Source: Escherichia phage EdH4. From it: DNA of 64,000 nt. A program made the position numbers and the translations under genes. The notes under the pieces were generated by a model. The model did not search any database, was not told the DNA's origin, and was given only the letters and a program-made list of their open reading frames with translations. The DNA lies in sequence record MK327930.1; one strand, 5' to 3'. Positions 591 through 12,996 of this stretch are shown in pieces. How positions within the stretch are numbered: position 1 is the first letter of the stretch; the number at the start of each line of letters is the position of its first letter.

Positions 591-592
591 CA

Positions 593-843: not shown

Positions 844-1460
844 AGTTGCCTTATTGTTACGAATAAAACAATTGCATTGTTAATGATTTCTTATCTTTCT
901 CTTAGTCATCTAATGATTCCAGTCAGTATAGTAATGTACAGTAAACATTAGACGACTAAAGATTTCTCTGTTTATTATAACTCACCGTTATAATTTCGAG
1001 CTGTTTACGAAAAATGTTGACATCCTAGCCGATTTATGTTATGCAGTTTACACGAATAATTATTTTATGCAGGTATTGACTATTCCGTTATTCTATGGTT
1101 GGAATAAATACTTAGCAGGCTATAGACTGGTGAGCGTACGTAAATTCTGAGATCTGGCGGCTATAGTTATACTCGATTTTTCACGTAGAACACGCTTTTG
1201 TGGTTATGTAAGTGCATGACTTATAAAGATTTTTAGTTGTTGACAAGATATTGGAGATGTGCATCAGGTTAAAATTTGTGCAATAGCGGCATTACGTGCA
1301 ATTTTGGAAGGTAAAACGGGTAAAAATGGCCTTGCTACCACACAATGAAAAATTATGCAATAGTTATTTTCCATGTATATTTGTACAGTGTGTGGGATTG
1401 ATGGCTCGTCAATTATTCCACTTGCCAGGTAGGGCCGTTTATGGTAGGAAAAGAGAAGAC

Positions 1461-1485
1461 AAAAAGAAAGGGGCTTTAAGCCCCT
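1461..1485 (-). terminator. Rho-independent terminator ending the minus-strand early gene cluster
   Basis: Hairpin aggggctttaagcccct preceded on plus by an A-run (T-run on minus), just downstream of the stop of CDS 1505..1768. Confidence 0.6.
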
Positions 1486-1504
1486 GACCGTTCATCTTGT
1501 TGTA

Positions 1505-1768
1505 TTATTTGTTGCTCATCCAGTTTTCCCAAGCTGCCTGATAATCTGCCTCACTACGGCGGATCTCTTCTTGTTCTTCAAGTCGGATCTCTTCTTCCAG
1601 GTACCCCAAGATGTCAGCCTTTTTGGTCTGGCGTAGCATCCAGTCATCTTTTTTGCGGGTAAAGATCTTATAAGCTTTCTCGCAAACCTCTTTTTTGCTA
1701 CCTTTCTGGACTTCCAGAACACGATAAGCCATATATTGAACTAGTTTGAGCTGGTCAAGACGTTTCAT
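1505..1768 (-). CDS. Hypothetical small early protein
   Basis: 87-aa ORF co-oriented with neighbours; followed by terminator. Confidence 0.6.
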   Translation of the reverse strand: MKRLDQLKLVQYMAYRVLEVQKGSKKEVCEKAYKIFTRKKDDWMLRQTKKADILGYLEEEIRLEEQEEIRRSEADYQAAWENWMSNK

Positions 1769-1830
1769 GATGTTTTTCCTCTTTATGTGGTTTTTGTTTA
1801 GTGGGCCTTTTGGCCCGTGTCATTATCTTA

Positions 1831-2103
1831 TTACTTACGGCGGCAGAATTCAAGAGTTTTTAATTGATAATCTTCCTCAGCCTGGAGTACAACCGCCTCG
1901 ATCATTTCGTTGGCATTGTTGAAGCCATACCCTTTAGCGAACTCATCCGCACCACCTTCGTGATCATGTTCTGCGTTCATCGCTTCCACGAAATGGAATT
2001 CAAGATTATTGAGATAAGGGCTTGATGTTCCGTCCTCTTTTTCGATGAGATCCCAAATAGCATTAAAACGTGATTCGACTTCTTGATTAATCCAGCTTGA
2101 CAT
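1831..2103 (-). CDS. Hypothetical small acidic protein
   Basis: 90-aa ORF; promoter and 5' hairpin upstream. Confidence 0.6.
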   Translation of the reverse strand: MSSWINQEVESRFNAIWDLIEKEDGTSSPYLNNLEFHFVEAMNAEHDHEGGADEFAKGYGFNNANEMIEAVVLQAEEDYQLKTLEFCRRK

Positions 2104-2157
2104 AATGTTTTCCTCTCTTCTGGTTGTTGTGTGGGCACTTTTGCCCCTTCAAGATAA

Positions 2158-2186
2158 ATGTTACCCCACCACCTGGCAGATGTCAA
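2158..2186 (-). promoter_or_regulatory. Sigma70-like promoter (TTGACA-N17-TAACAT) followed by 5' hairpin
   Basis: Minus-strand TTGACA at 2181-2186, -10 at 2158-2163; hairpin gggcacttttgcccc at about 2133-2147 precedes the RBS. Confidence 0.5.
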
Positions 2187-2211
2187 CGGTTTTTATAGTT
2201 CTTATATGACA

Positions 2212-2256
2212 GGCAGGCCCGGTGATTGTCTCCCCCCGTCGCCAGGTGCCTGCCGT
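2212..2256 (-). repeat. GC-rich repeated element, copy C (inverted relative to copies at 11401 and 11555)
   Basis: 2212-2234 is the exact reverse complement of 11555-11577 (23 nt); 2234-2256 is a near reverse complement of 11401-11422. Confidence 0.7.
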
Positions 2257-2270
2257 GTAATAAGTATAAC

Positions 2271-2300
2271 AAAAAACAGGACCATTGCAAGCCCTGTTTT
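2271..2300 (-). terminator. Putative hairpin terminator (bidirectional-looking)
   Basis: aacagg-N12-cctgtt flanked by an A-run and a T-run, downstream of CDS 2315..2506. Confidence 0.4.
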
Positions 2301-2314
2301 CTAGTTAATAAGGA

Positions 2315-2506
2315 TTATATTTTTTCGCCTATGTAGTCCGGTCGGTTTTTCTCTGTCATGCGCTTTAGCAATTCTTGCATGTTACTTATGGCTTGTAGTG
2401 TATCCTCTTCCAGACTTGAATCAACATAATCAGGATCGTCTATGACCTTTCTATGATTATGATAACGCAGTACCGCCAATACCTTTCTAACTTGTTCAAC
2501 ATTCAT
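2315..2506 (-). CDS. Hypothetical protein
   Basis: 63-aa ORF co-oriented with neighbours. Confidence 0.45.
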   Translation of the reverse strand: MNVEQVRKVLAVLRYHNHRKVIDDPDYVDSSLEEDTLQAISNMQELLKRMTEKNRPDYIGEKI

Positions 2507-2655
2507 TTTTATCGCTCTTTAAAACAAGGTGCCAACCGTTTCTAGTAGATCACTGACCACCAGGACAATACTGATCAGCACATATCTAACCATAAGGGGA
2601 AAGAGCGCCAGCGATCCCGCCACAATCCCCAAGGTAATGATTATCTTTTTCACGG

Positions 2656-2940
2656 TTAACGGTTAACGTAAGCTTTACCGTTCACGGTTATGGGTAGATC
2701 CTCCAGGTCTGGATCTTCCTTAAGGTCGCGAGCAAGCTCACCGCACCGGATACCCTCGAATCCGTAGTACTCTGTTGTACCGTCATTAAAAGTTTTAGCG
2801 GCAAGGCATAAGCGATAAGTAACCCCGATTTGATTGACGGCATGGATATCCGTTAGATCAACCTCTTTTGCCAGCTCTTTAGCCATTACAGGCGCATTAA
2901 GTCCAACAACCAGGGCAACTACTGCGATCATCTTTTTCAT
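2656..2940 (-). CDS. Small secreted protein with N-terminal signal peptide
   Basis: MKKMIAVVALVVGLNAPVMA then a polar mature region with 2 Cys; RBS gaaagagga upstream. Confidence 0.6.
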   Translation of the reverse strand: MKKMIAVVALVVGLNAPVMAKELAKEVDLTDIHAVNQIGVTYRLCLAAKTFNDGTTEYYGFEGIRCGELARDLKEDPDLEDLPITVNGKAYVNR

Positions 2941-3031
2941 TGTGTCTATCCTCTTTCTGCTACGTTTAAGGCGGCAGTAACCGCCTGTTTATGATTTATT
3001 GGTTAATTTTCAGGTATCGCTATAAATTAAA

Positions 3032-3256
3032 CTATGCTGTACGCTCAACTATAACAACGGTTTGAGGGATCTCACCTTCCACCACTATCAAGGCCTTTTT
3101 CTGCGTGATGGATATCTTTACCCGTTGCAGCGTGGCGGTGAAGTCTTTCATTTCGTCACGTGGTGTTTTAGTGCAATGCCAGATCTCAGGCTTACCTATT
3201 TGCAAGCCGCGTAAAAATTCTGTTTTACCTGTCTTATTCGTGATCATTTGATTCAC
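3032..3256 (-). CDS. Hypothetical protein
   Basis: 74-aa ORF; AAGGTGA RBS-like upstream. Confidence 0.45.
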   Translation of the reverse strand: MNQMITNKTGKTEFLRGLQIGKPEIWHCTKTPRDEMKDFTATLQRVKISITQKKALIVVEGEIPQTVVIVERTA

Positions 3257-3257
3257 C

Positions 3258-3461
3258 TTAACCGATACCGTGGGAAGATAGGATCATGTTAGCCATAGTT
3301 GCAACCACTCCAACCGATAATGCCAGGCCAACTACTACAACCGTGAAAATTTTCTCTAACATGATTCTACCCTCATTAATGGGCGTTGCCTTATTGCCCC
3401 GCCCTACGAAATACAGTCTATCAAGTAATAAACTATTGTCAAGATTTATTTTACTTCCCAA
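3258..3461 (-). CDS. Hypothetical small membrane protein (start uncertain)
   Basis: 67-aa ORF with hydrophobic C-terminal segment VVVVGLALSVGVVATMANMIL. Confidence 0.35.
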   Translation of the reverse strand: MGSKINLDNSLLLDRLYFVGRGNKATPINEGRIMLEKIFTVVVVGLALSVGVVATMANMILSSHGIG

Positions 3462-3582
3462 ACGGAAAATTCACTACCTGGCGGAATCATCTTTTTAATC
3501 TTGTTTGCTGCTGCTACCAGATCCACGGCTTGTACTGTAATAATATAACCAATTGTCGAGGCTGTTGCGTTGAAAGTTTTCA
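3446..3582 (-). CDS. Hypothetical 45-aa protein (below ORF-track cutoff)
   Basis: ATG preceded by a GAGG RBS and the ggcgggaa..ttcccgc hairpin; MKTFNATASTIGYIITVQ... Confidence 0.35.
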
Positions 3583-3663
3583 TTAAATTACCCTCATTAA
3601 TGGCGGGAAGTATTCCCGCGCTATGTAGTACACTTTACCAGATTGTTGACTGTTGTCAAACTA

Positions 3664-3846
3664 TTTTAACGATAATCATCATATGCTTTATTGACCTGGC
3701 GAATATAACATTCAAAAGCTAGATCAATAGATTTATATTCACGGATATATTCACCATAGGAAACCACATACATTTCTATAGCTTCCTCATATGCGAGGAG
3801 AATAGAATCTAAGCCTACGATCTCAGTCTTTGCAATAATAGCCATG
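3664..3846 (-). CDS. Hypothetical 59-aa protein (below ORF-track cutoff)
   Basis: ATG at about 3846 with an agagga RBS; MAIIAKTEIVGLDSILLAYEEAIEMYVVSYGEYIREYK... Confidence 0.45.
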
Positions 3847-3920
3847 ATTTTTATCCTCTTTGTGGTTGGTGGGGCTTGTTGCCCCCTTTGATTTATATTC
3901 TACAGTCTTATAAGGTCATG

Positions 3921-4154
3921 TCAACTGTTTTCAAAAAATTTTTCTGCTGTAATATTTTTCCCGGTAGGGTTCGCTACTTTCAAAATTTTATCATGCACCG
4001 GACGCCCGAAAGAATAAGATCCGTATACAGTAAACCAATAATTGCCGTCAGGCTGTACTATTACCGCCGCATATGGTACGCCTTTTTCGTTTTTGCTGAC
4101 AAAATAGATCACATTGCCATTAATAGCCTCGGCGCGTTTAATTTGTTCCATCAT
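3921..4154 (-). CDS. Hypothetical protein
   Basis: 77-aa ORF. Confidence 0.55.
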   Translation of the reverse strand: MMEQIKRAEAINGNVIYFVSKNEKGVPYAAVIVQPDGNYWFTVYGSYSFGRPVHDKILKVANPTGKNITAEKFFENS

Positions 4155-4217
4155 GATGATTCACCTATCTTTATTTTTTCATAGTTTCAGGAGGGGGCCT
4201 TTTCGGCCCCGCCAGGT

Positions 4218-4502
4218 TTATTTATTGATAGCGTGCAGCGGGAAAGGTACGCCAGGTTGATAGATAACCTTTACAACCTCATCAGGACAAAAGAAATTGC
4301 AGAACTCACCGCAATAGGCCTCATCCTCTTTCAACTCTTCATCAACATACTCAAAAAAGTAGTCGATGCTTGGATAATCTTGCCCTGGGTTATAGTCAAC
4401 CATTGTCAGGACTAGTTCAAGATCGTTGCGTAGGATATGCATACCCGCTTTTAAGTATTTTGCTTCCATTTCCACTACATCGCCAACGGTAACAATAGCC
4501 AT
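4218..4502 (-). CDS. Hypothetical acidic protein
   Basis: 94-aa ORF; promoter-like TTGCAT-N16-GATAAT upstream at about 4560-4590. Confidence 0.55.
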   Translation of the reverse strand: MAIVTVGDVVEMEAKYLKAGMHILRNDLELVLTMVDYNPGQDYPSIDYFFEYVDEELKEDEAYCGEFCNFFCPDEVVKVIYQPGVPFPLHAINK

Positions 4503-4708
4503 GGTTTTAACTCCTATCTATCCGGTTAATGATTGGAGGCCTCACCGCCCCCCGACACCCTTTATTATCCATATTGTAGGACTTGATGCAAGTACTTCTT
4601 TAAAAATTTTTTAAGCGCCTTGGGGGCCGCTGTAACGCCAAAATAATAAAGGCTATGCAACCGCATAGCCTTTATGTGATTATATCGCTGCAGGCCCTGC
4701 CAGGGGCC

Positions 4709-5059
4709 TTATTTTGCATTCTTTCCTATATTGCCGCTACGGTACCAGCGTTTACGGTGAAAATGGTAATAATCACCATCGGCATTAAACATCAGATGAT
4801 TTTCAATAACCAGCTTACGAAGGTGGGCCGGATCTTGTTCCATTCTTGCCAGATTCTGGCGGCTGTTACGTAAGCGGATAAATTCTATATTCAGGCCGTT
4901 GATTGCAGCATGGATGTCAAAGTAACCACCTTTGAGACGTTCACGCATGGCGTTAAGCTCAACACAATATACAGATTTCTCACAAATCAAGGTATTAGCC
5001 AGGGCGCGGACCTGGGCAAGGGGGTTAAGCTCATTAAGGTAATATAGTTTTACTTTCAT
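4709..5059 (-). CDS. Hypothetical protein
   Basis: 116-aa ORF. Confidence 0.6.
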   Translation of the reverse strand: MKVKLYYLNELNPLAQVRALANTLICEKSVYCVELNAMRERLKGGYFDIHAAINGLNIEFIRLRNSRQNLARMEQDPAHLRKLVIENHLMFNADGDYYHFHRKRWYRSGNIGKNAK

Positions 5060-5076
5060 AAAATCACCTGCTGAAA

Positions 5077-5376
5077 TTAGTTTGAGAAAACATCGTTCAC
5101 AATAGCGATCACAATGCCGCCCACCTTGTCACGGTCAACAATGCACAAATCACCATAGATCATGTGGTAGTCTGGATGATCTTTGACGGAATAGTCGATA
5201 AGTGTTTTCTTGTCATCCAGCTTACTAACTTCCATTCTCATAACGATATGAGAATCATCAAAGGCATTATTCCGAAAAGTCATAACCTGACCGCCAGGGC
5301 ACCCGGTGATTTCCACCTCCACGCCGTCTACGATCTGACCATCAAAGAAATAAAGATTATTAGCCTGGATAAACAT
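5077..5376 (-). CDS. Hypothetical protein (start trimmed to ATG with AAAGGAG RBS)
   Basis: Track start at 5397 is a GTG; the ATG at 5376 has a canonical RBS. Confidence 0.55.
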   Translation of the reverse strand: MFIQANNLYFFDGQIVDGVEVEITGCPGGQVMTFRNNAFDDSHIVMRMEVSKLDDKKTLIDYSVKDHPDYHMIYGDLCIVDRDKVGGIVIAIVNDVFSN

Positions 5377-5418
5377 GATCATTACTCCTTTTTGCACTGA
5401 TTATTTTAACAGGGTTTA

Positions 5419-5464
5419 AATTTACTTTATTGATGGCCCTAGAGTCAAGGCCATCTAAAAATAA
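5419..5464 (-). promoter_or_regulatory. Conserved 45-bp intergenic element, copy 1 (promoter TTGACT-N18-TAAATT with palindrome over the -35)
   Basis: tttactttattgatggccctagagtcaaggccatctaaaaataa; palindrome GATGGCC-N10-GGCCATC; near-identical to copies at 9135 and 9756. Confidence 0.5.
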
Positions 5465-5467
5465 ATT

Positions 5468-5668
5468 TTACAGGCCTACAATCTCTTTAATTCGTTTTAC
5501 TGCTGCCTCAGCGCCTTGAGGGTAAAAATTATGGTAACCAATCACGCGAGTGATACTAATCGCCGTTTGATGATCTTCATAATCACCTTTAAAGATTTCT
5601 TGACCGTCAATCAGCACGGCAATTTTTTCTTCTTTTTTGAAGTTAATAACGCGGATATTGTTGCTCAT
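5468..5668 (-). CDS. Hypothetical protein
   Basis: 66-aa ORF. Confidence 0.5.
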   Translation of the reverse strand: MSNNIRVINFKKEEKIAVLIDGQEIFKGDYEDHQTAISITRVIGYHNFYPQGAEAAVKRIKEIVGL

Positions 5669-5727
5669 TTTGTTTCTCCTTTTGGAACTTTGTCTATGCG
5701 GTGGGGAGTGTCTCCCCGTTGATTGTT

Positions 5728-5755
5728 ATTATCCATATTCTGGATCGGATTGCAA
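5728..5755 (-). promoter_or_regulatory. Sigma70-like promoter TTGCAA-N16-GATAAT followed by 5' hairpin
   Basis: Hairpin ggggagtgtctcccc at about 5703-5717 lies between the -10 and the RBS of CDS 5468..5668. Confidence 0.45.
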
Positions 5756-5912
5756 CACTCAGGGAGAAAAAAATTTGAAAAGTTAGGCCCCCATGATCGG
5801 GGGCCGTTCTTAGTTACTTACAGCGATAAAGTACATCCCTACGCCTAGCAATATTTCAAGGGCGATAATCTCAAGCCATACCATAACGCGGCGCACCTTA
5901 TCGGTGCATGGC

Positions 5913-6095
5913 TTATCCTTGGTTGTCATCGTCTCCCCCTTTCCTTCTGGTAGTAGTGACGCGATCTACAATGGCCCCCAGGAGTCCTATCACGACACAC
6001 ACCACAAGAAAAATTATCTCCGCTGTTGTTCGATCCATTGTTATAAAATTCCTCAAGATCAGGCCTGAAAATAAAGCGTTCGTTATTGAATCCAT
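5913..6095 (-). CDS. Hypothetical small membrane protein (frame choice uncertain)
   Basis: Hydrophobic stretch IIFLVVCVVIGLLGAIV; the overlapping 87-aa ORF in another frame is low-complexity and less plausible. Confidence 0.35.
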   Translation of the reverse strand: MDSITNALFSGLILRNFITMDRTTAEIIFLVVCVVIGLLGAIVDRVTTTRRKGGDDDNQG

Positions 6096-6148
6096 CCCGC
6101 CAGGCGGCTGGCTTCAAATCTTCACTAAAGGGGTTAATTAACGTGGCA

Positions 6149-6520
6149 TTATTTAAACGGCTGGTCCACATATTTTCTATTCCTCTCAAATAGGCGATCC
6201 GCCTCAGTTAAACAAATCTCATGGGCGTGATCTCTGGTTTTAGCTTCATCGAAAACCTGTTGTGCAAGGCTGCAACGTAGGGAGACTGGAAGATCACTAT
6301 AATAGGCGTTGACAAACGTTTGAGCGTCGTACAGGTCTGAAAATACTTTACCCTTTCTATTATTCCCCTTGTCAACAATTGCAAGGATAACCAATACAAT
6401 AGTTGCAACCACCCCCAGGAAAATAGATATAATAAACCATAAAAAGGCGGATCTTCCCATCTTGCCAGCGATCCAGGCGTTAAACAAGGCAACCAATACA
6501 GCCAAAATAATAAATTCCAT
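6149..6520 (-). CDS. Membrane protein (two predicted TM helices)
   Basis: Start trimmed to the ATG with an AAGAGG RBS; MEFIILAVLVALFNAWIAG...FLWFIISIFLGVVATIVLVILAIV. Confidence 0.6.
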   Translation of the reverse strand: MEFIILAVLVALFNAWIAGKMGRSAFLWFIISIFLGVVATIVLVILAIVDKGNNRKGKVFSDLYDAQTFVNAYYSDLPVSLRCSLAQQVFDEAKTRDHAHEICLTEADRLFERNRKYVDQPFK

Positions 6521-6584
6521 TCTATGTACCTCTTTTACAGTTCTGATTAACAATAAGGCGGCAAATATGCCGCCTGCTACCTGA

Positions 6585-6965
6585 TTAAAAATTATCGCCG
6601 TAAATCTTTCCGCTTTCTACCCATACCACCACGCGAGGCATACTATCCCACACGTCTTGTTTTAGATTGAGCGCGTGCAATTCTTCGGTGGTGCTCATAC
6701 CGGGCACGGGCTGATTGTATACTGCAAAACGACCGCCTGCATAATCATAGGCCAGGGTTAAATCACACTGGATCATCTTTTTGATCATGGCATTAAGCAT
6801 GGCGTTAGCCGCATATTGATCACGTTTTAAAGGCAACTCTTTGATTAGTTTGCGATAGTTTTCGATATGGTCGCACACTGTTTCACGAGGAAGATCTTTC
6901 ATATCTTCACGGAATGTAACCAGGTTAAACATAACGGTGTCAATAGCCTTGGTAGTGTTTTTCAT
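6585..6965 (-). CDS. Hypothetical protein
   Basis: 126-aa ORF; promoter and hairpin upstream. Confidence 0.6.
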   Translation of the reverse strand: MKNTTKAIDTVMFNLVTFREDMKDLPRETVCDHIENYRKLIKELPLKRDQYAANAMLNAMIKKMIQCDLTLAYDYAGGRFAVYNQPVPGMSTTEELHALNLKQDVWDSMPRVVVWVESGKIYGDNF

Positions 6966-7019
6966 GATGTTATCCTCTTTGTTTTGTGTTGGGGCAAACG
7001 TCTTGCCCCCTTGAGTTTT

Positions 7020-7047
7020 AATATAGCAGGTTTTTAGGTTATTGCAA
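7020..7047 (-). promoter_or_regulatory. Sigma70-like promoter TTGCAA-N16-TATATT followed by 5' hairpin
   Basis: Hairpin ggggcaaacgtcttgcccc at about 6991-7010 downstream of the -10. Confidence 0.45.
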
Positions 7048-7055
7048 CACTTTAT

Positions 7056-7679
7056 TTATGAAAAAGTCATCTCACCATATTCATCGACATCAAACCGCCA
7101 ATCATTGGCCTCGATAAGGCCGATCAGGTTTTCTGCGGTTAACTGTTCTAGATAGGCCTCCTCCAGGTCTACGTAAACCTTGCGGGATAGCTCCCGTACC
7201 GTCTCGGTGATCAGTTCTTCCAGGTCTTCCACTTTGTTTTCTTGTTTGGCGGTCAGATCTAGCCAAGTGGTATCAATGTACCCGCTTACAGTGTTTTCAT
7301 GGCTGTAATGGCTGTACTTGTCGCGTTCAACACTGGCTGATAACTCGCCATCGTGCATTGTGCCGAACAAGTGACGAATTGATCGGAACTTGGTCAGGGC
7401 CTTTACTTTACGCAAAAATTTTTCTAAATCCACGTTTTCAGCACTGATTGACGCGCCGTCACCCTGGCACCAAAAGCCTGACCAATGTACTTCGGTATCT
7501 TCAAGGCCATACTCTGGAAAAACATATTCTTTATAGTATTCAATTACACTTTCTGCAAAAAAGTTATCCCCGCTGTGTTCTTCTCTTTCGCGGACCATTT
7601 CAACGGCTTTTTCTTTTTGTTCGTCGGTCAGCACGTCGAAAGATAAATTGTAACCTGCGGTAATGTTAACGGTGGTCAT
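7056..7679 (-). CDS. Hypothetical acidic protein
   Basis: 207-aa ORF with AGGAG RBS; motif HWSGFWCQGDGASI; no family confidently recognised. Confidence 0.65.
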   Translation of the reverse strand: MTTVNITAGYNLSFDVLTDEQKEKAVEMVREREEHSGDNFFAESVIEYYKEYVFPEYGLEDTEVHWSGFWCQGDGASISAENVDLEKFLRKVKALTKFRSIRHLFGTMHDGELSASVERDKYSHYSHENTVSGYIDTTWLDLTAKQENKVEDLEELITETVRELSRKVYVDLEEAYLEQLTAENLIGLIEANDWRFDVDEYGEMTFS

Positions 7680-7736
7680 GATATTTTCTCCTATTTTCTT
7701 TGTTAGTGGCGGGAAGTTTTCCCGCCTGTGTGTTTA

Positions 7737-7764
7737 AGTATACTTATTGAGGCTTACTTGTCAA
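7737..7764 (-). promoter_or_regulatory. Sigma70-like promoter TTGACA-N16-TATACT followed by 5' hairpin
   Basis: Hairpin ggcgggaagttttcccgcc at 7708-7726 sits 10 nt after the -10. Confidence 0.55.
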
Positions 7765-8014
7765 CACTATTTTTTAAATTATTGTGGCGCAAAATGTTTA
7801 AAATCTCCTCAACGTCATCAACACGGCGGCAATTTTTAAACGCTACCAATTGCCCCATGATTTTAATCACTGGGCGGCCTTGCCAGTGCCCCTGAAGAAA
7901 GCGCGCCCTGACTTTATCGGTGGAACTATCACGCCACCAAATAGCCTTGTTGTTGCAGTAGTAAAAATTATTCAGGATAACATCAACTTTATCAAAATTT
8001 TTTAATTTACGCAT
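7754..8014 (-). CDS. Hypothetical protein
   Basis: 86-aa ORF. Confidence 0.6.
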   Translation of the reverse strand: MRKLKNFDKVDVILNNFYYCNNKAIWWRDSSTDKVRARFLQGHWQGRPVIKIMGQLVAFKNCRRVDDVEEILNILRHNNLKNSVDK

Positions 8015-8046
8015 GGCGTTTACTCCTTTCTCTCTTTGATGTGGTT

Positions 8047-8074
8047 AGTATAGCTAACCTGTTGACGATGTCAA
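8047..8074 (-). promoter_or_regulatory. Sigma70-like promoter TTGACA-N16-TATACT
   Basis: Upstream of CDS 7754..8014, followed by an aaggag RBS. Confidence 0.5.
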
Positions 8075-8231
8075 TGATATTTTTAACGCCATGAAACGGC
8101 CCTGGGCGATGTTTTCAGGTTAAAGGGGCGATTGCATAGGTGGGGGCCTTTTTGGCGCTTACAGGGCCAACCAGGGGCGCTATTCGTAGGATAGAAATAA
8201 AAAGCCCCGCACAATGGCGGGGCGCTGGTTG

Positions 8232-8429
8232 TTATTTGTCTTTATGGCGGTATCGTTCTGCCTGTCGTTCACGTTCCAAAAGTAGGCCGGGCAATTTACG
8301 ATCATAATGATTACGCCAGATCTTCCCAAACCTTTTTGGCTTATTCAGTTTATTGTTACGCTGGCGGCGTTCTGGCAGCTCTTCGGAATCATGAGGGCGC
8401 TTTACAATTTTCTCGAAATTAATTTTCAT
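8232..8429 (-). CDS. Small basic protein (possible nucleic-acid binding)
   Basis: Start trimmed to MKINFEK; rich in R/K (PERRQRNNKLNKPKRFGKIWRNHYDRK). Confidence 0.5.
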   Translation of the reverse strand: MKINFEKIVKRPHDSEELPERRQRNNKLNKPKRFGKIWRNHYDRKLPGLLLERERQAERYRHKDK

Positions 8430-8772
8430 ATATTCCCCCCTTGCTAACTTCAATATTGGCCTGAATAGCCCGGATACGGCGCTTTATAACTTCCTGATCT
8501 GTGTGGTCGTATCCCCAAAAGTCTACAATTTTTGCGCCACCCGCCTCCAGGCGGTATAGTGTTTCCTGCATTTTGTAAGCCGGGATCGGTCGCGGTGTTA
8601 CTTGGTCACCTTCTTTATTTTTATACTTTATAATATAATCTTCGTTATCGTTGAATGCCCAAAATGGATATTCTGCAAGGGCGGTACTTCCTCTTTCCTT
8701 TTTATCCTGGATCTTATTTACAATTAAAGCCGTAGCAATAGCGCCAATAATAAAACTTGCCCCGCTGATCAT
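8419..8772 (-). CDS. Membrane-anchored protein (N-terminal TM helix)
   Basis: MISGASFIIGAIATALIVNKIQ then a soluble domain. Confidence 0.6.
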   Translation of the reverse strand: MISGASFIIGAIATALIVNKIQDKKERGSTALAEYPFWAFNDNEDYIIKYKNKEGDQVTPRPIPAYKMQETLYRLEAGGAKIVDFWGYDHTDQEVIKRRIRAIQANIEVSKGGIYEN

Positions 8773-8846
8773 GTACTTTCTCCTTTCATGGTGTTAATAA
8801 ATTATCTTTATAGATGGCCCTGCAACCAGGACCACCGAAAAAATAA

Positions 8847-9092
8847 CTATTTCACAATGCCTACAAAACAGATCCCGCCTTCACCTATATAAGCAATATC
8901 GGTCACTTTATAACTTGTCAAGATCTGCTTATTTAGTTCATTAATAAAATCGGTCATTGCGTTGGTGTAGTTGTCTTCCGTGTCTAAGGCATAATCCCAG
9001 GTGTACACCTTTTTACGTCCGAAGCCTTTTACCATGATACGGGCGCTTTTGGTGTTGGTAGGGGCATAATATTTGGTGATTAGTGCTGCCAT
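8847..9092 (-). CDS. Hypothetical protein
   Basis: 81-aa ORF. Confidence 0.6.
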   Translation of the reverse strand: MAALITKYYAPTNTKSARIMVKGFGRKKVYTWDYALDTEDNYTNAMTDFINELNKQILTSYKVTDIAYIGEGGICFVGIVK

Positions 9093-9134
9093 GGTTTTAA
9101 CTCCTATGCATTAGTTCAGTGTTAACAGTATAAA

Positions 9135-9179
9135 GTTTACTTTATTGATGGCCCTGGTGTCAAGGCCATCTAAAAATAA
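9135..9179 (-). promoter_or_regulatory. Conserved 45-bp intergenic element, copy 2 (promoter TTGACA-N18-TAAACT with palindrome over the -35)
   Basis: gtttactttattgatggccctggtgtcaaggccatctaaaaataa; identical to the copy at 9756. Confidence 0.5.
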
Positions 9180-9181
9180 GC

Positions 9182-9523
9182 TTACTCGTTTTCTTCCAGC
9201 TCCGCAAGCTCTTCTTTTGCTTCTTCTAACTCTGTCTGTAATTCCTGGTATTCTTCATCGTCCTCAATATCCAGGCTGTCGATGTAGTCGCTAAATCCGC
9301 AGCGGTAAGCGATAGGATCTAGCTCCTTGAGGATACGCGACGGAAGAAAAGAAATGTTTCCGATCATAATTTCGCCGTAGATCTCGTCTAACCATTCATC
9401 ATAGTTTTCGTCGTACTTGTCCTCGTCGATTTCAAAGTTATCGATCTTATTCTCAAGGTCTGCGATCTGTTTTTTCAGTTCAGCGATCTGCATAGCTTTT
9501 TCTGAGGCGGTCATAGTAGTCAT
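9182..9523 (-). CDS. Acidic coiled-coil protein
   Basis: 113-aa ORF; heptad-like QIAELKKQIADLENKIDNFEID and an acidic C-terminus. Confidence 0.6.
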   Translation of the reverse strand: MTTMTASEKAMQIAELKKQIADLENKIDNFEIDEDKYDENYDEWLDEIYGEIMIGNISFLPSRILKELDPIAYRCGFSDYIDSLDIEDDEEYQELQTELEEAKEELAELEENE

Positions 9524-9574
9524 GGTGTTTTTCTCCTTTTGTGTGTTCTGGGAAGTTTTCCCGTTTATGTGCTT

Positions 9575-9602
9575 ATTATATCGATTTAAGTTAGCTTGTC
9601 AA
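9575..9602 (-). promoter_or_regulatory. Sigma70 consensus promoter TTGACA-N16-TATAAT followed by 5' hairpin
   Basis: Hairpin gggaagttttccc at about 9550-9563. Confidence 0.55.
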
Positions 9603-9722
9603 TTAAAAGTTTAAGAAAAATTTTGCGACACCGTTGGCGCTACCCATCAACATTTGCGCCAGGATGTACCCAATGATGCAAACGATGATGGTTACCTTTG
9701 TGTGCTGGCGTGTAGTGCTCAT
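9603..9722 (-). CDS. Small hydrophobic protein, 39 aa (below ORF-track cutoff)
   Basis: Strong RBS aaaggagg then ATG; MSTTRQHTKVTIIVCIIGYILAQMLMGSANGVAKFFLNF. Confidence 0.45.
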   Translation of the reverse strand: MSTTRQHTKVTIIVCIIGYILAQMLMGSANGVAKFFLNF

Positions 9723-9755
9723 CTTTAAGCCTCCTTTTCCGCTCAACTGTGGTTA

Positions 9756-9800
9756 GTTTACTTTATTGATGGCCCTGGTGTCAAGGCCATCTAAAAATAA
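9756..9800 (-). promoter_or_regulatory. Conserved 45-bp intergenic element, copy 3
   Basis: Identical to copy 2; upstream of the small CDS 9603..9722. Confidence 0.5.
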
Positions 9801-9802
9801 AC

Positions 9803-10198
9803 TCAATAAGTTTTTAGTACTTTCCCGTCCAATCTGTCAAGCTGGATCTCGATAGCTGCAGAAAACCTATTGTAAACCACATCGCCCAGGGAGTCCAGCC
9901 AATCTATGACGTTATATACCTGCTCTTTATTCTTGCAAGTCCGGATCCGTTTCATTACGTAAGACGGATCAATATTAGCGCTCTCGTTGTTGTGGTCCTG
10001 CGCCTGGCCTGCTGCGCTAGTTATAGATTTTACAACCACCTGAAAGGGCTTTAAGGTGCCTTTTGCGTTCATCTCACGCGCTTTTGCGGCGCGGTTGTTA
10101 TATGTTACACAACGGCGGCAAATGTTGACCAAATGCATATCAATAATTTTTTCATCGTTTGCCAGTTCGTTCATGATGCGGCGTACGTTCTTATTCAT
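9803..10198 (-). CDS. Hypothetical protein
   Basis: 131-aa ORF. Confidence 0.6.
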   Translation of the reverse strand: MNKNVRRIMNELANDEKIIDMHLVNICRRCVTYNNRAAKAREMNAKGTLKPFQVVVKSITSAAGQAQDHNNESANIDPSYVMKRIRTCKNKEQVYNVIDWLDSLGDVVYNRFSAAIEIQLDRLDGKVLKTY

Positions 10199-10246
10199 GA
10201 TCTTTTTCCTTTGTGCTGGCGGGAAACATTCCCGCCTTTTGTGTCT

Positions 10247-10274
10247 AGTTTACTTAAATTTTGCAGCGTGTCAA
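10247..10274 (-). promoter_or_regulatory. Sigma70-like promoter TTGACA-N16-TAAACT followed by 5' hairpin
   Basis: Hairpin ggcgggaaacattcccgcc at about 10219-10237. Confidence 0.55.
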
Positions 10275-10280
10275 TGATTT

Positions 10281-10679
10281 TTATTCGTGGGCGCATGTTA
10301 CAATGTGTTTTTTATAGCCCAGGTGGTCAGCAAGTGCCGACAAAAACTCTTCTTCGTAGATCCAGCCGTCGGCAGTGATCCCCATAGCATTTAATGCGCT
10401 CTCAAGTGCTGCGTTAGCTTTATCGTAACCGTGACCGCTCGCCTTGCCGCCAGTATAACCGTACTTATTGTTCTTGTTGTCGTGAATCCAAAACACGCAG
10501 TAGTGAGTGTTCCCGCTGGCGGCGGCATAATACCGGATCTCAGCTACTTCGTGCAAATTATTGTCATCGTCCAGGCCCACCAGATTATAAGCCTTGTAAA
10601 ATCCACGATCACGGCGGCAGTTCTTGACATCAGAAAAAGAAAAGTCTGCATTATCAAAATTAAAGGTAGTGGTTTTCAT
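10281..10679 (-). CDS. Hypothetical protein
   Basis: 132-aa ORF. Confidence 0.6.
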   Translation of the reverse strand: MKTTTFNFDNADFSFSDVKNCRRDRGFYKAYNLVGLDDDNNLHEVAEIRYYAAASGNTHYCVFWIHDNKNNKYGYTGGKASGHGYDKANAALESALNAMGITADGWIYEEEFLSALADHLGYKKHIVTCAHE

Positions 10680-10711
10680 GATTTTATCCTCTTAGTGTCT
10701 TTTGTGCTTTT

Positions 10712-10740
10712 AGTGTATTTGGTGTCGGACTGTATGTCAA
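10712..10740 (-). promoter_or_regulatory. Sigma70-like promoter TTGACA-N17-TACACT
   Basis: Upstream of CDS 10281..10679. Confidence 0.45.
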
Positions 10741-10743
10741 TAC

Positions 10744-11019
10744 TTATTTTTTATTAAACCAGTGGTTGATCTGACCTTTTGTCAGGGCGCAACGATTAAG
10801 CTGTTGCAGGGTATAGCTATGACCGCGACGAAATTTATAAAGGCCTTGCCCGTTGTTGATGGTTACATCCACCCGGCAAATCACTTGATTGGTGACCACC
10901 TGGCGAGTGTTGCGACGTACTTTGATCCCGTATGCGTTCATAAATTTATCCTCTTTACTGGTTAGTGCGGTGTTGTTCACCTTGTAGGGTAATAATACCA
11001 TGATTAACCTTGTTGTCAA
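10744..11019 (-). CDS. Hypothetical protein
   Basis: 91-aa ORF. Confidence 0.55.
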   Translation of the reverse strand: MTTRLIMVLLPYKVNNTALTSKEDKFMNAYGIKVRRNTRQVVTNQVICRVDVTINNGQGLYKFRRGHSYTLQQLNRCALTKGQINHWFNKK

Positions 11020-11022
11020 CGA

Positions 11023-11196
11023 CTATTTTAAATTATTTTTATGATAGAATCCACCTGCCGCCCCCCGCCAGGTTAACCACCATTTTTCGTACTCTTCTTT
11101 ATGTTCCAACGCTCCCGCCATAGCCTTTTCAACCAGGGCGATAGCCTCAGAGTCATTAATAGCTACATTTTCCAGGGGGATCATATTACCTTTCAT
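11023..11196 (-). CDS. Hypothetical 57-aa protein (below ORF-track cutoff)
   Basis: RBS gaggagg then ATG; MKGNMIPLENVAINDSEAIALVEKAMAGALEHKEEYEKWW... Confidence 0.45.
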   Translation of the reverse strand: MKGNMIPLENVAINDSEAIALVEKAMAGALEHKEEYEKWWLTWRGAAGGFYHKNNLK

Positions 11197-11354
11197 TTTT
11201 GTACCTCCTCTTCAATTGTTACCTATCCTGTAGCATAGGCCCACCAGGTTTACAAGCCTTCATTCTCCCCTACCTGGTCAGTTAGGTCCTGCCAGGCTGG
11301 CCCCGCCAGGTTGCAGCGGTTAGCGCATCAGGTTAGAAAAATTTTTTGAAAAGT

Positions 11355-11383
11355 GTTGACAGCGGCCCCGCCAGGTGGCACAA
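11355..11383 (+). promoter_or_regulatory. Plus-strand sigma70-like promoter TTGACA-N17-CACAAT pointing into a non-coding region
   Basis: No plus-strand ORF downstream; the GC-rich element begins about 18 nt after the -10. Confidence 0.45.
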
Positions 11384-11400
11384 TATACCTATCGAAAGGA

Positions 11401-11437
11401 CGGCAGGCACCGGTGACGGGGGAGACAACCACCGGGG
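11401..11437 (+). repeat. GC-rich repeated element, copy A
   Basis: cggcaggcaccggtgacgggggagacaaccaccgggg; related to copies at 11555 and 2212. Confidence 0.6.
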
Positions 11438-11500
11438 ATGGGCGCTGCATAAAATGAGAACGGTTATCATTATCATTTAAAAATTTATGCAAAAAAATCC

Positions 11501-11531
11501 TTGCTTTCTTTGTCCTGTGTGATACTATAAT
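11501..11531 (+). promoter_or_regulatory. Plus-strand promoter TTGCTT-N16-TACTATAAT
   Basis: Transcribes toward the AT-rich iteron region; no ORF downstream. Confidence 0.45.
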
Positions 11532-11554
11532 AACAAGCCGGGGCAACAGGGGCC

Positions 11555-11577
11555 GGGAGACAATCACCGGGCCTGCC
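11555..11577 (+). repeat. GC-rich repeated element, copy B
   Basis: gggagacaatcaccgggcctgcc; exact reverse complement of 2212-2234. Confidence 0.7.
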
Positions 11578-11699
11578 CGTTATTCTGCAAACGAGAATGA
11601 TTATCATTCAAAATTCTAAATGAGAACTCCTAGCATTTAATAAATTTAATTAGCACGCTAATTACCCTCCGTAACAATTTACTATAAAATAGTATCCAC

Positions 11700-12190: not shown

Positions 12191-12213
12191 GATATGCCAG
12201 GAATTTTCAAGTA

Positions 12214-12975: not shown

Positions 12976-12996
12976 AACTTTATCTCCTGGACTTTC

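What the first reader, a model, noticed from the sequence alone, without database searches (positions are those of the whole stretch)
1500..11200. Early region built from repeated promoter plus 5' hairpin plus small gene cassettes
At least eight early genes have their own sigma70-like promoter (TTGACA or TTGCAA, 16-18 bp spacer, -10 TAWACT, TATAAT or GATAAT) followed 9-11 nt later by a stable GC-rich hairpin (for example ggcgggaagttttcccgcc, ggggagtgtctcccc, ggggcaaacgtcttgcccc) and then an AGGAG RBS. A hairpin at the 5' end of the transcript would protect the mRNA from 5'-end-dependent decay. The uniform architecture suggests modular, individually expressed cassettes.
Basis: partly seen in the sequence, partly recalled or inferred. 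Interest (0 to 1): 0.45.

Follow-up and report, generated by a model that had tools for sequence, protein, structure and literature searches.

The report
Promoter plus 5' hairpin gene cassettes
In the early region of this rV5-like coliphage, ten small genes of unknown function each carry their own host-type promoter followed at a fixed distance by a GC-rich hairpin; this is real and conserved, and it is another example of the promoter/stem-loop cassettes (PeSLs) already described in T4-like phages.

Summary
The window is an rV5-like coliphage (Vequintavirus, 99.6% identical to phage Alma). All genes in 1500-11200 lie on the minus strand.

- Ten of the 29 genes have a sigma70-like promoter, a G-first GC-rich hairpin 9-12 nt after the -10, an A/C-rich leader, a Shine-Dalgarno sequence and ATG.
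- Chance expectation is about 0.2 such cassettes (P about 4e-15). None of 39 promoter-like sites in the other 53 kb has such a hairpin.
- Four more genes use a 49-nt repeat in which the hairpin encloses the -35.
- Across 13 related phages the -35 is nearly invariant and stems vary three times less than loops.
- The hairpin keeps its position despite loop inversions, indels and hairpin swaps.
- phi92-like and phAPEC8-like phages have the same architecture.
- Gene gains, losses and swaps between phages break at the cassettes.
- The hairpins lack U-tracts, unlike six true terminators in the region.

Best reading: these are insulated early expression units equivalent to PeSL cassettes of T4-like phages, and the hairpin forms the 5' end of each mRNA. 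A role in mRNA stabilisation is inferred, not shown. There is no transcription-start or half-life data, and no classic compensatory covariation was found. I rate it a new member of a known kind, of moderate-to-low interest.

The parts
10196..10274 (-). Type-1 cassette: -35 TTGACA 10269-10274, -10 TAAACT 10247-10252, hairpin GGCGGGAATGTTTCCCGCC 10218-10236, leader, ATG 10198 (131-aa ORFan)
   Evidence: hairpin kept in 13 orthologues, loop flipped with a 1-nt deletion in phita32; rV5 promoter P194
9521..9602 (-). Type-1 cassette with a weak hairpin: TTGACA-16-TATAAT (12/12), 5-bp hairpin within CGGGAAAACTTCCCA 9549-9563 (-5.5 kcal), ATG 9523
   Evidence: degenerate copy of the GGCGGGAA family (D3); rV5 P192
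7677..7764 (-). Type-1 cassette: TTGACA-16-TATACT, hairpin GGCGGGAAAACTTCCCGCC 7708-7726, ATG 7679 (207-aa ORFan)
   Evidence: loop inverted (AAC to GTT) in MaxBurger and A51.2; annotated 'terminator' in the Alma record; rV5 P185
6963..7047 (-). Type-1 cassette: TTGCAA-16-TATATT, hairpin GGGGGCAAGACGTTTGCCCC 6991-7010, ATG 6965
   Evidence: orthologues carry a flipped loop (FV3) or a remodelled stem GGGGCGAG/CTTGCCCC with G.U
5666..5755 (-). Type-1 cassette directly after terminator 5786-5805: TTGCAA-16-GATAAT, hairpin CGGGGAGACACTCCCC 5703-5718, ATG 5668
   Evidence: four loop/stem-top variants among orthologues, 5-bp GGGGA/TCCCC core kept
4500..4591 (-). Type-1 cassette with a weaker promoter: TTGCAT-16-GATAAT (8/12), hairpin GGGGGCGGTGAGGCCTCC 4535-4552 (one G.U), ATG 4502
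   Evidence: pair GC:6 / GU:4 among orthologue variants
3843..3924 (-). Type-1 cassette: TTGACA-16-TAGAAT, hairpin GGGGGCAACAAGCCCC 3871-3886, ATG 3845
   Evidence: annotated 'terminator' in the HdK5 record; homology breakpoint 3919-3928; rV5 P174
3581..3659 (-). Type-1 cassette: TTGACA-16-TAAAGT, hairpin GCGCGGGAATACTTCCCGC 3603-3621, leader CCATTAATGAGGGTA shared with the next cassette, ATG 3583
   Evidence: most frequent breakpoint (3612-3622, 7 loci); fused to gene 3362 in Mangalyan
3360..3442 (-). Type-1 cassette: TTGACA-16-TAGACT, bulged hairpin GGGCGGGGCAATAAGGCAACGCCC 3381-3404, ATG 3362 (34-aa membrane peptide)
   Evidence: same hairpin in phAPEC8 and near-identical in phi92
2101..2186 (-). 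Type-1 cassette: TTGACA-17-TAACAT, hairpin GGGGCAAAAGTGCCC 2133-2147, ATG 2103
   Evidence: phage PDX carries the 7047-type hairpin here; rV5 P168
9720..9803 (-). Type-2 cassette: 49-nt repeat in which the -35 TTGACA lies inside the 10-bp hairpin GATGGCCTTGACACCAGGGCCATC 9768-9791; -10 TAAACT; ATG 9722
   Evidence: family D1
9090..9182 (-). Type-2 cassette, hairpin 9147-9170, ATG 9092
   Evidence: D1, reference copy
5374..5467 (-). Type-2 cassette, hairpin 5432-5455 (C to T gives G.U), ATG 5376
   Evidence: D1, 90%
8770..8848 (-). Degenerate type-2 cassette, hairpin GGTGGTCCTGGTTGCAGGGCCATC 8813-8836. Its three 5'-arm differences from the other copies all keep pairing through wobble pairs. ATG 8772
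   Evidence: D1, 69%
10939..11019 (-). Promoter-only cassette (TTGACA-16-TATTAT, only a 4-bp hairpin), ATG 10941
10677..10740 (-). Promoter-only cassette (TTGACA-17-TACACT, no hairpin, A/C-rich leader), ATG 10679
   Evidence: rV5 P195
8012..8074 (-). Promoter-only cassette (TTGACA-16-TATACT, no hairpin), ATG 8014
   Evidence: rV5 P186
1766..1830 (-). Hairpin plus leader without a convincing -35 (GATAAT, 5 nt, GGGCCAAAAGGCCC 1803-1816), ATG 1768
   Evidence: insertion point of an extra gene in MaxBurger, Mangalyan and EduardKellenberger, flanked by leader repeats
2938..3010 (-). Hairpin AGGCGGTTACTGCCGCCT 2969-2986 plus leader, no promoter at 9/12 or better, ATG 2940
4152..4217 (-). Hairpin GGGGCCGAAAAGGCCCC 4194-4210 plus leader, no promoter at 9/12 or better, ATG 4154
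8204..8223 (-). Intrinsic terminator (hairpin followed by TTTTTATTTC)
6556..6575 (-). Intrinsic terminator-like hairpin (followed by TATTGTTAAT) upstream of ATG 6520; rV5 t184
5786..5805 (-). Intrinsic terminator (rV5 t181)
4646..4675 (-). Intrinsic terminator (rV5 t177)
2263..2303 (-). Composite terminator/promoter: terminator hairpin 2270-2303 carries the -35 TTGCAA in its loop, and its U-tract runs into the -10 TATACT (2263-2268). It drives the 45-nt GC-rich element at 2220-2265.
   Evidence: breakpoints 2274 and 2299-2306
1469..1485 (-). Terminator closing the gene array (rV5 t164)

Best explanation
The region is an array of self-contained early expression units for small accessory genes. 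Each unit has five parts: an A/T-rich upstream tract, a near-consensus sigma70 promoter read by unmodified host RNA polymerase, a G-first GC-rich stem-loop, a G/U-poor A/C-rich leader, and a strong Shine-Dalgarno sequence plus ATG. The stem-loop starts 9-12 nt after the -10, which is about +2 to +5 of the transcript.

Shown here: the architecture, its statistical non-randomness, purifying selection on the -35 and on the stems, retention of a hairpin at the same position while its sequence turns over, its presence in three phage genera, and its coincidence with gene-content breakpoints.

Inferred: the hairpin forms at the extreme 5' end of each primary transcript. It would also form at the 5' end of fragments released by cleavage in the AU-rich promoter sequence of read-through transcripts. 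There it would leave too few unpaired nucleotides for RppH and the 5'-end sensor of RNase E, which stabilises the mRNA. It would also fold the 5' end on itself, so that the leader and ribosome site stay accessible whatever gene follows.

Because the units share sequence, they also act as recombination sites that shuffle gene modules, as described for PeSL cassettes of T4-like phages.
For: 1. Ten cassettes have a gap of 9-11 nt to the GC block; chance P is about 4e-15, and 0 of 39 promoter-like sites elsewhere in the window have one.
2. Divergence across 13 Vequintavirus loci: -35 0.4%, -10 4.6%, stems 5.3%, loops 16.7%, spacer 8.7%.
3. In orthologues a hairpin is kept at a gap of 9-12 nt. This holds despite three loop inversions, loop/stem-top indels, a remodelled stem and replacement by another cassette's hairpin. 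Four single-substitution variants weaken or disrupt the stem.
4. No U-tract follows the hairpins: 0-3 T in the next 10 nt (mean 1.1), against 5-8 for the six hairpin-plus-U terminators in the same region. The phage therefore uses canonical terminators where it terminates.
5. One-sided changes give G.U in the sense strand: GC:6/GU:4 at one pair, two C-to-T changes in cassette 2186, and three in the type-2 repeat. Across 36 segments the sense strand is more stable in 28 and the antisense in 7.
6. The leader composition is A 54%, C 26%, G 9%, T 11%, against 32/20/23/25 for the region.
7. The same design occurs in phi92 (at least 10 cassettes) and phAPEC8 (at least 7). It also occurs, presumably independently, in Gordonia phage Pupper.
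8. Modularity: 9 of 22 breakpoint clusters fall in cassettes, which cover 18% of the region, and most of the rest lie at gene ends. A cassette-to-cassette fusion through the shared leader is seen in Mangalyan, and a phi92-type gene with its cassette sits in Mangalyan and FV3 at 92-95% identity.
9. From established knowledge, not tested here: a stem-loop with no more than 2-4 unpaired 5' nucleotides stabilises E. coli mRNAs (Emory, Bouvet and Belasco 1992, ompA). RppH needs at least 2-3 unpaired 5' nucleotides, and RNase E is 5'-end dependent.
Against: - No transcription start sites, RNA 3' ends or half-lives are available, so the position of the hairpin in the transcript is predicted, not observed.
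- RNAalifold found no pair with compensatory change on both sides; the G-C cores never vary.
- Sense/antisense stability differences are small, and many segments are paralogues. I count about six independent G.U events against one.
- Three strong promoters in the same array work without a hairpin.
- Viable relatives carry disrupted hairpins: Alma cassette 3659, A13b cassette 5755 and EduardKellenberger cassette 7764. The hairpin is therefore dispensable.
- The constant spacing could partly be inherited from a common ancestral cassette.
- For the T4-type analogue, one stem-loop terminated as well as rrnB T1 in a reporter.
- Breakpoints at intergenic cassettes are also what selection for intact genes alone would leave.
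Confidence: 0.5

Rival explanations
1. The stem-loops are attenuators or terminators for transcription arriving from the upstream cassette. This is the interpretation given for PeSLs. Each gene would then be expressed mainly from its own promoter, and early transcription would not accumulate along the array.
For: A PeSL stem-loop reduced lacZ expression as strongly as rrnB T1. The hairpins are intergenic, G-then-C stems like those of PeSLs. The Alma and HdK5 records annotate four of them as terminators. Few canonical terminators separate the 29 genes.
Against: No U-tract follows any of the ten hairpins, whereas six canonical hairpin-plus-U terminators exist in the same array. The consensus scan calls none of them a terminator on the coding strand. 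A terminator placed 2-5 nt after a start site would also stop the cassette's own transcript. An attenuator needs no fixed distance from the -10, and in RB49/phi1 the stem-loops occupy five different positions, but here the distance is 9-12 nt in every case.
Confidence: 0.18
2. The inverted repeats act as double-stranded DNA operators for a phage or host regulator that shuts early promoters off. They would sit at +3 to +22 in type 1 and flank the -35 in type 2.
For: Both positions are classical operator positions. One stem sequence, GGCGGGAA/TTCCCGCC, dominates: 4 cassettes in the window and at least 8 in phi92. The type-2 repeat is 90-98% identical over 49 nt in three copies.
Against: At least six unrelated stem sequences serve at the same position. 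The distance between half-sites varies from 3 to 8 nt. Loop inversions and stem remodelling are tolerated. G.U pairs would be mismatched half-sites in DNA. For type 2 this reading is less well excluded.
Confidence: 0.1
3. The hairpins matter only at the DNA level, as shared sequence or cruciform-prone sites that promote recombination and gene shuffling. They would have no role in expression.
For: Breakpoints, cassette fusions, hairpin swaps and loop inversions occur at these sites. PeSL recombination and mini-circles have been shown in RB49/phi1.
Against: A recombination site needs no fixed distance from the -10. Stems are more conserved than loops within lineages. The sense-strand G.U bias points to an RNA or single-strand role. 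The architecture recurs in unrelated actinophages. Recombination is better seen as a consequence than as the selected function.
Confidence: 0.1
4. The hairpins terminate antisense (plus-strand) transcription and so shield the early genes from convergent transcripts.
For: On the plus strand, seven of the hairpins are followed by T-rich sequence and are called terminator-like by the scan.
Against: No promoter at 10/12 or better lies on the plus strand in 1400-11300. No late-promoter motif lies on the plus strand in 1-11200. The T-richness is simply the complement of the A-rich stretch between the -10 and the hairpin. G.U pairs in the sense strand become C.A mismatches in antisense RNA.
Confidence: 0.04

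Closest known systems
PeSL (promoter-early stem-loop) cassettes of T4-like phages RB49, phi1, PST and nt-1 (Arbiol et al. 2010, PMC2839356; Comeau et al. 2014, PMC4122927)
   Same: - A sigma70-consensus promoter with an A/T-rich upstream tract, a stable stem-loop with G-tracts followed by C-tracts, then a Shine-Dalgarno sequence and ATG.
- Many copies, concentrated in a variable region upstream of small ORFans.
- Indels and replacements between relatives are bounded by the cassettes.
- Subclasses with the stem-loop over the -35 (type 2 here) and downstream of the -10 (type 1 here) are both listed for PeSLs.
   Different: - The phage lineage is different: Vequintavirinae and Stephanstirmvirinae, not T4-like. 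The PeSL papers mention no such phage.
- Here the dominant class sits at a fixed 9-12 nt after the -10, inside the transcript. In RB49/phi1 the commonest positions are between the hexamers or over the -10.
- No terminator features are present here, and separate canonical terminators exist.
- Terminator activity and mini-circles were shown experimentally for PeSLs and are untested here.
- mRNA stabilisation was never proposed for PeSLs.
5'-terminal stem-loop mRNA stabilisers: E. coli ompA 5' UTR hairpin, the stem-loop at the start of phage T7 late transcripts (gene 10 leader), synthetic 5' hairpins, 5' stabilisers of Bacillus phage SP82 and ermC (from my own knowledge)
   Same: A short GC-rich hairpin within a few nucleotides of the 5' end, upstream of and separate from the ribosome binding site.
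   Different: Those are single, experimentally characterised elements. Here the hairpin is a repeated, promoter-linked design feature across about ten genes, and its function is only inferred.
Host-takeover module of Bacillus phage SPO1: clustered small early genes, each with strong promoters and ribosome sites (from my own knowledge; SPO1-likes are cited in the PeSL discussion)
   Same: A dense array of small early genes of unknown function, individually driven by strong host-type promoters.
   Different: I know of no fixed 5' hairpin in that module; the host and lineage are different.

Membership tests
PeSL regulatory cassettes (T4-like phages) | Sigma70-consensus early promoter with an A/T-rich tract upstream of the -35 | tested here: met
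   Nine of the ten type-1 cassettes score 9-12 of 12 to TTGACA-N16-18-TATAAT, and cassette 4591 scores 8 of 12. A/T-rich tracts such as AAAAATTTTTTGAAAA precede the -35 (I3). The -35 is nearly invariant in orthologues.
PeSL regulatory cassettes (T4-like phages) | Adjacent stable stem-loop, typically G-tract followed by C-tract | tested here: met
   Free energy -5.5 to -13.4 kcal/mol; the 5' arm is G-rich in 10 of 10.
PeSL regulatory cassettes (T4-like phages) | Repeated motif concentrated in a variable (hyperplastic) region upstream of ORFans | tested here: met
   Repeat families D1, D3, D5, D8, D9, D12 and D18. The cassettes are confined to 1500-11200 of 64 kb. The proteins have no Pfam family that reaches its cut-off and fall only in PHROGs of unknown function.
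PeSL regulatory cassettes (T4-like phages) | Indels and replacements between close relatives are bounded by the cassettes | tested here: met
   9 of 22 breakpoint clusters lie in cassettes (18% of the sequence). Junction sequences are shown for MaxBurger and Mangalyan. Selection for intact genes could also contribute to this pattern.
PeSL regulatory cassettes (T4-like phages) | The stem-loop acts as a transcription terminator/attenuator | tested here: inconclusive
   The sequence lacks a U-tract, and the scan does not call the hairpins terminators on the coding strand. Activity itself cannot be tested with these tools.
PeSL regulatory cassettes (T4-like phages) | Recombination between neighbouring cassettes yields excised mini-circles | not testable with these tools
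   Only the deletion product is seen: in Mangalyan the promoter and hairpin of cassette 3659 are joined to gene 3362.
PeSL regulatory cassettes (T4-like phages) | Sequence homology to RB49/phi1 PeSLs (common descent) | not tested
   RB49 and phi1 sequences were not fetched. BLAST with one cassette finds only Vequintavirus orthologues. PeSLs are defined by architecture, so I treat this as an analogue in another lineage.
5'-terminal stem-loop mRNA stabiliser | Hairpin within about 0-4 nt of the transcript's 5' end | tested here: inconclusive
   The 9-12 nt gap, with a start site expected about 7-8 nt after the -10, predicts 1-4 unpaired nucleotides. No start sites have been mapped.
5'-terminal stem-loop mRNA stabiliser | Removing the hairpin shortens mRNA half-life in an RNase E/RppH-dependent way | not testable with these tools
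   An experiment is needed.
Intrinsic (rho-independent) terminator | GC-rich hairpin immediately followed by a U-tract on the transcribed strand | tested here: not met
   0-3 T in the 10 nt after the ten hairpins, against 5-8 for the six real terminators.
Known RNA families (Rfam 15) | Match to a curated covariance model | tested here: not met
   No match at E up to 1 in 1-13000.

The most novel reading that the evidence does not exclude
The G-first hairpin, usually preceded by CAUAG or ACAG, is a shared 5'-end signature of early mRNAs in Vequintavirus, phi92-like and phAPEC8-like phages, and arose again in Gordonia phages. It would let the infected cell tell phage messages from host messages. 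For example, it could exempt them from phage-stimulated, 5'-end-dependent host mRNA decay; a protein with a Srd-like region is encoded at 38144-39121. Alternatively, it could be bound by a dedicated factor that times early expression. The type-2 repeat would then be a separate regulatory class.
Probability: 0.12. Interest if true: 0.6.

Novelty: new member of a known kind. Interest (0 to 1): 0.35.

Why it matters
The finding would extend the 'mobile regulatory cassette' principle from T4-like phages to a second large group of therapeutic and typing coliphages (rV5, phi92 and phAPEC8 relatives). It also suggests that the stem-loop has a role in the cassette's own mRNA, not only in stopping upstream transcription.

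Practical consequences:
- It explains why several deposited genomes annotate 'terminators' directly downstream of promoters.
- It gives a ready-made set of compact, insulated expression units (promoter, 5' hairpin, leader, ribosome site).
- It marks the places where accessory genes are exchanged between phage genera.

None of this overturns current understanding.

Tried and rejected
- Rfam search of 1-13000 at E up to 1: nothing.
- Pfam on ten cassette-driven proteins: no family reached its curated cut-off, only three chance-level matches. PHROGs gave only families of unknown function.
- RNAalifold on orthologue variants of two cassettes: no pair with change on both sides, only G-C to G-U. I therefore do not claim covariation.
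- BLAST with one whole cassette: only Vequintavirus orthologues, so sequence search cannot trace the family.
- IMG/VR pattern scan for promoter plus GGCGGGAA: most of the 120 loci have a single match that fits chance. Only loci with several cassettes were used.
- PVP-SE1 (same subfamily, genus Seunavirus): only two such cassettes in 46 kb, so the design is not universal in the subfamily.
- Literature: no paper in the library describes these cassettes or maps start sites in rV5-like or phi92-like phages. The rV5 paper lists seven of these promoters and four terminators but not the hairpins.
- RNase III sites: rejected because the stems are 5-8 bp, too short.
- Lambda boxB/nut-type antitermination sites: rejected because there is no conserved loop and the loops invert freely.
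- N4-type hairpin promoters: rejected because such promoters need a virion RNA polymerase, which is not known in this group (not tested here), and the hairpins lie downstream of sigma70 promoters.
- Antisense terminators: rejected, see rivals.

Full report
**Identity of the window.** Bases 1500-11200 are 99.6% identical to Escherichia phage vB_Eco_Alma and 93-98% identical to about 100 other Vequintavirus (rV5-like) genomes. All genes of the region lie on the minus strand. There are 29 small ORFs of 34-207 aa. None has a Pfam family that reaches its curated cut-off, and PHROGs places them only in families of unknown function.

**Observation check.** I read the minus strand and tabulated, for each of the 29 start codons, the best promoter and the fold of the downstream leader.
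- Ten genes have a sigma70-like promoter followed 9-11 nt after the -10 by a GC block that forms a 5-8 bp hairpin, with the first paired base 10-12 nt after the -10. Their start codons are at 10198, 9523, 7679, 6965, 5668, 4502, 3845, 3583, 3362 and 2103.
- Hairpin free energy is -5.5 to -13.4 kcal/mol. Each hairpin is followed by a leader and a purine-rich Shine-Dalgarno sequence.
- Two of the ten are weaker cases: 9523 has only a 5-bp stem, and the promoter of 4502 (TTGCAT-16-GATAAT) scores only 8/12.
- Hairpins of this strength occur at 3.7 per kb on this strand, so the probability of at least 10 of about 16 promoters having one in a 4-nt window is about 4e-15.
- In the remaining 52.7 kb of the window, none of 39 promoter-like sites has a hairpin starting 8-13 nt after the -10.

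**What else is in the array.**
- Four genes (starts at 9722, 9092, 5376 and a degenerate copy at 8772) use a different module. It is a 49-nt repeat in which the -35 lies inside a 10-bp hairpin, GATGGCCTTGACACCAGGGCCATC.
- Three strong promoters have no hairpin or only a 4-bp one (first base of the -35 at 11019, 10740 and 8074).
- Four genes have a hairpin and leader but no convincing promoter (starts at 1768, 2940, 4154 and 6520).
- Eight genes have no signals of their own and are presumably co-transcribed.
- Six hairpins are followed by U-tracts and look like true terminators (minus-strand 5' ends at 8223, 6575, 5805, 4675, 2303 and 1485). Four of these are the terminators listed for rV5.
- The rV5 genome paper lists seven of the promoters (P168, P174, P185, P186, P192, P194, P195) but does not mention the hairpins.
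- The Alma and HdK5 records annotate four of the 5' hairpins as 'terminators'.

**Anatomy that bears on function.**
- The ten hairpins are followed by 0-3 T in the next 10 nt (mean 1.1). The six terminators have 5-8.
- The leader between hairpin and ribosome site is A 54%, C 26%, G 9% and T 11%, against 32/20/23/25 for the region.
- In all ten hairpins the 5' arm is G-rich and the 3' arm C-rich.
- The nucleotides just before the stem are usually ATAG, GTAG, ACAG or AAAG.
- With a start site expected 7-8 nt after the -10, the transcript would begin 1-4 nt before the stem. This step is an inference; no start sites have been mapped.

**Conservation.** I aligned each cassette with its orthologues in 13 Vequintavirus loci.
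- Divergence from the window is 0.4% in the -35, 4.6% in the -10, 5.3% in stems, 16.7% in loops, 8.7% in the spacer, 7.5% in the -10-to-hairpin gap and 9.4% in the leader.
- In nearly every variant a hairpin is retained at a gap of 9-12 nt, although its inner part turns over. The loops of cassettes 7764, 7047 and 10274 are inverted in some phages. Cassettes 5755, 4591 and 3924 differ by loop and stem-top indels. Cassette 7047 has a remodelled stem with a G.U pair. Phage PDX carries the 7047-type hairpin in cassette 2186.
- RNAalifold found no pair with change on both sides, only G-C to G-U changes. The evidence is therefore 'structure kept while sequence turns over', not classic covariation.
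- One-sided changes favour pairing on the sense strand. Of 36 distinct segments, the sense strand is more stable in 28 and the antisense in 7. Many segments are paralogues, and I count about six independent G.U events against one.
- Single-substitution disruptions exist in viable phages: Alma cassette 3659, A13b cassette 5755 and EduardKellenberger cassette 7764. The hairpin is not essential.

**Distribution.**
- The same design is abundant in phi92 (Justusliebigvirus, at least 10 cassettes in 12 kb) and phAPEC8 (Phapecoctavirus, at least 7 in 14 kb), which belong to another subfamily. It consists of TTGACA-16/17-TAnnnT, about 10 nt, GGCGGGAA...TTCCCGCC or GGGCGGCA...TGCCGCTC, a short leader, a Shine-Dalgarno sequence and ATG.
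- It is rare in PVP-SE1 (Seunavirus): two cassettes in 46 kb.
- A pattern scan of IMG/VR also recovered it in Gordonia phage Pupper, an actinophage, where the origin is presumably independent.

**Modularity.**
- Homology with other phages breaks at the cassettes. 9 of 22 breakpoint clusters lie in cassettes, which make up 18% of the region. Most of the others lie within a few nucleotides of gene ends. The exception is the loss of gene 4709-5059.
- In MaxBurger an extra gene is flanked by two copies of the leader ACTAATCA.AAC.
- In Mangalyan the promoter and hairpin of cassette 3659 are joined, through the shared leader CCATTAATGAGGGTA, to the gene that cassette 3442 drives in the window. This removes gene 3583.
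- The slot between the genes starting at 3845 and 3362 holds different genes in different phages. One is a phi92 gp243-like gene with its own phi92-type cassette, at 92-95% identity in Mangalyan and FV3.
- Selection for intact genes would also leave intergenic breakpoints, but the shared junction sequences point to recombination between cassettes.

**Mechanism.**
- The best-supported reading is an array of insulated early expression units in which the stem-loop is the 5' end of the unit's own mRNA.
- By analogy with known 5'-terminal stabilisers, the stem-loop would block access of RppH and RNase E to the 5' end. The A/C-rich leader would keep the ribosome site open. This is inference from established knowledge.
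- The same hairpin would protect the downstream fragment when read-through transcripts are cut in the AU-rich promoter sequence.
- A protein with a Srd-like region is encoded at 38144-39121 (PHROG matches to 'Srd anti-sigma factor' and 'decoy of host sigma70'; the rV5 paper calls gp11 a probable Srd homologue). T4 Srd is reported to stimulate RNase E (my own knowledge). This offers a rationale but is not evidence.
- The main rival is the PeSL authors' view that the stem-loop attenuates upstream transcription, and one PeSL stem-loop terminated strongly in a reporter. Against it here are the missing U-tracts, the presence of separate canonical terminators, and the fixed distance from the -10.
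- The operator, recombination-only and antisense-terminator readings are less likely, for the reasons given under rivals.

**Comparison with what is known.** The closest known system is the PeSL cassette of T4-like phages.
- Tested here and met: the promoter type, the A/T-rich upstream tract, the G-then-C stem-loop, the repetition in a variable ORFan region, and the indel boundaries.
- Untestable here: terminator activity and mini-circles.
- Both hairpin positions seen here are among the five listed for PeSLs. However, the dominant class and its strict spacing differ, and the PeSL papers neither mention non-T4 phages nor consider mRNA stability.

I therefore rate this a new member of a known kind. 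It is real, conserved and useful for annotation, but not surprising to a specialist.

Noticed in passing
window 2220-2265 (-), 11405-11450 (+), 11540-11590 (+): Three copies of a GC-rich element of about 45 nt with core CACCGGTGACGGGGGAGACAAYCACCGGG. Two have a scored sigma70-like promoter just upstream (TTGCAA-16-TATACT at 2290, TTGACA-17-CACAAT at 11356); for the third I only read a candidate -10 by eye. They fold at -22 to -27 kcal/mol (z -1.6 to -2.9), have no Rfam match, and one copy is shared with phAPEC8. They may be small RNAs or protein-binding sites.
   Followed up: partly
window 11452-11474, 11589-11608, 11618-11637, 143-162: Repeated motif AATGAGAAC(G/T)GTTATCATT that resembles the E. 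coli Fur box. GATAATGATAACCGTTCTC at 11456-11474 has 3 mismatches to the consensus, and there are two matches in the window against 0.02 expected. Two of the copies lie just after the plus-strand GC-rich elements.
   Followed up: partly
window hairpins 7708-7726, 6991-7010, 10218-10236 compared with L003, L015, L007, L006: The hairpin loops are exactly inverted between closely related phages (for example AAC against GTT, GACGT against ACGTC). This is the signature of template switching or recombination across the stem, and it shows that loop sequence is free.
   Followed up: yes
L104 6600-11300 (Gordonia phage Pupper NC_054723, 131.6-137.9 kb) and L128: In a high-GC actinophage, four of seven TTGACA-17-TAnnnT promoters are followed 7-11 nt later by a GGCGGG...CCCGCC-type hairpin and then directly by a Shine-Dalgarno sequence and ATG. 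This is the same design in an unrelated phage-host system.
   Followed up: partly
L113 700-5800 (-), IMG/VR human-gut phage contig: Six consensus TTGACA-17/18-TATAAT promoters are each followed 7-9 nt later by a long GC-rich hairpin, with no obvious gene start after it. The contig has only distant similarity to known phages.
   Followed up: no
window 38144-39121 (+): The homologue of rV5 gp11 matches PHROG families 'HNH endonuclease' (1e-112), 'decoy of host sigma70' (7e-13) and 'Srd anti-sigma factor' (3e-10). It has no Pfam hit.
   Followed up: partly
window 4205-4221, 11299-11315, 11364-11380: Short repeated motif GGCCCCGCCAGGT (CCTGGCGGGGCC on the other strand) in intergenic DNA, including over the spacer of the plus-strand promoter at 11356 (D11).
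   Followed up: no
window 1-1500 and 11200-12200: Two stretches without convincing genes flank the cassette array. They are rich in short direct and inverted repeats (for example GCCATGCCATTCGTTTGCAT twice, and a 57-nt unit three times at 11713-11908). They probably correspond to the 'non-coding' box on the rV5 map.
   Followed up: no
window 6951-6982 vs 10665-10696; 4498-4517 vs 9088-9107: Ribosome-site modules are shared between unrelated genes and extend into the first codons: 91% identity over 32 nt, and 100% identity over 20 nt (ATAGGAGTTAAAACCATGGC). The repeated unit therefore includes the translation start (D12 and D18).
   Followed up: no
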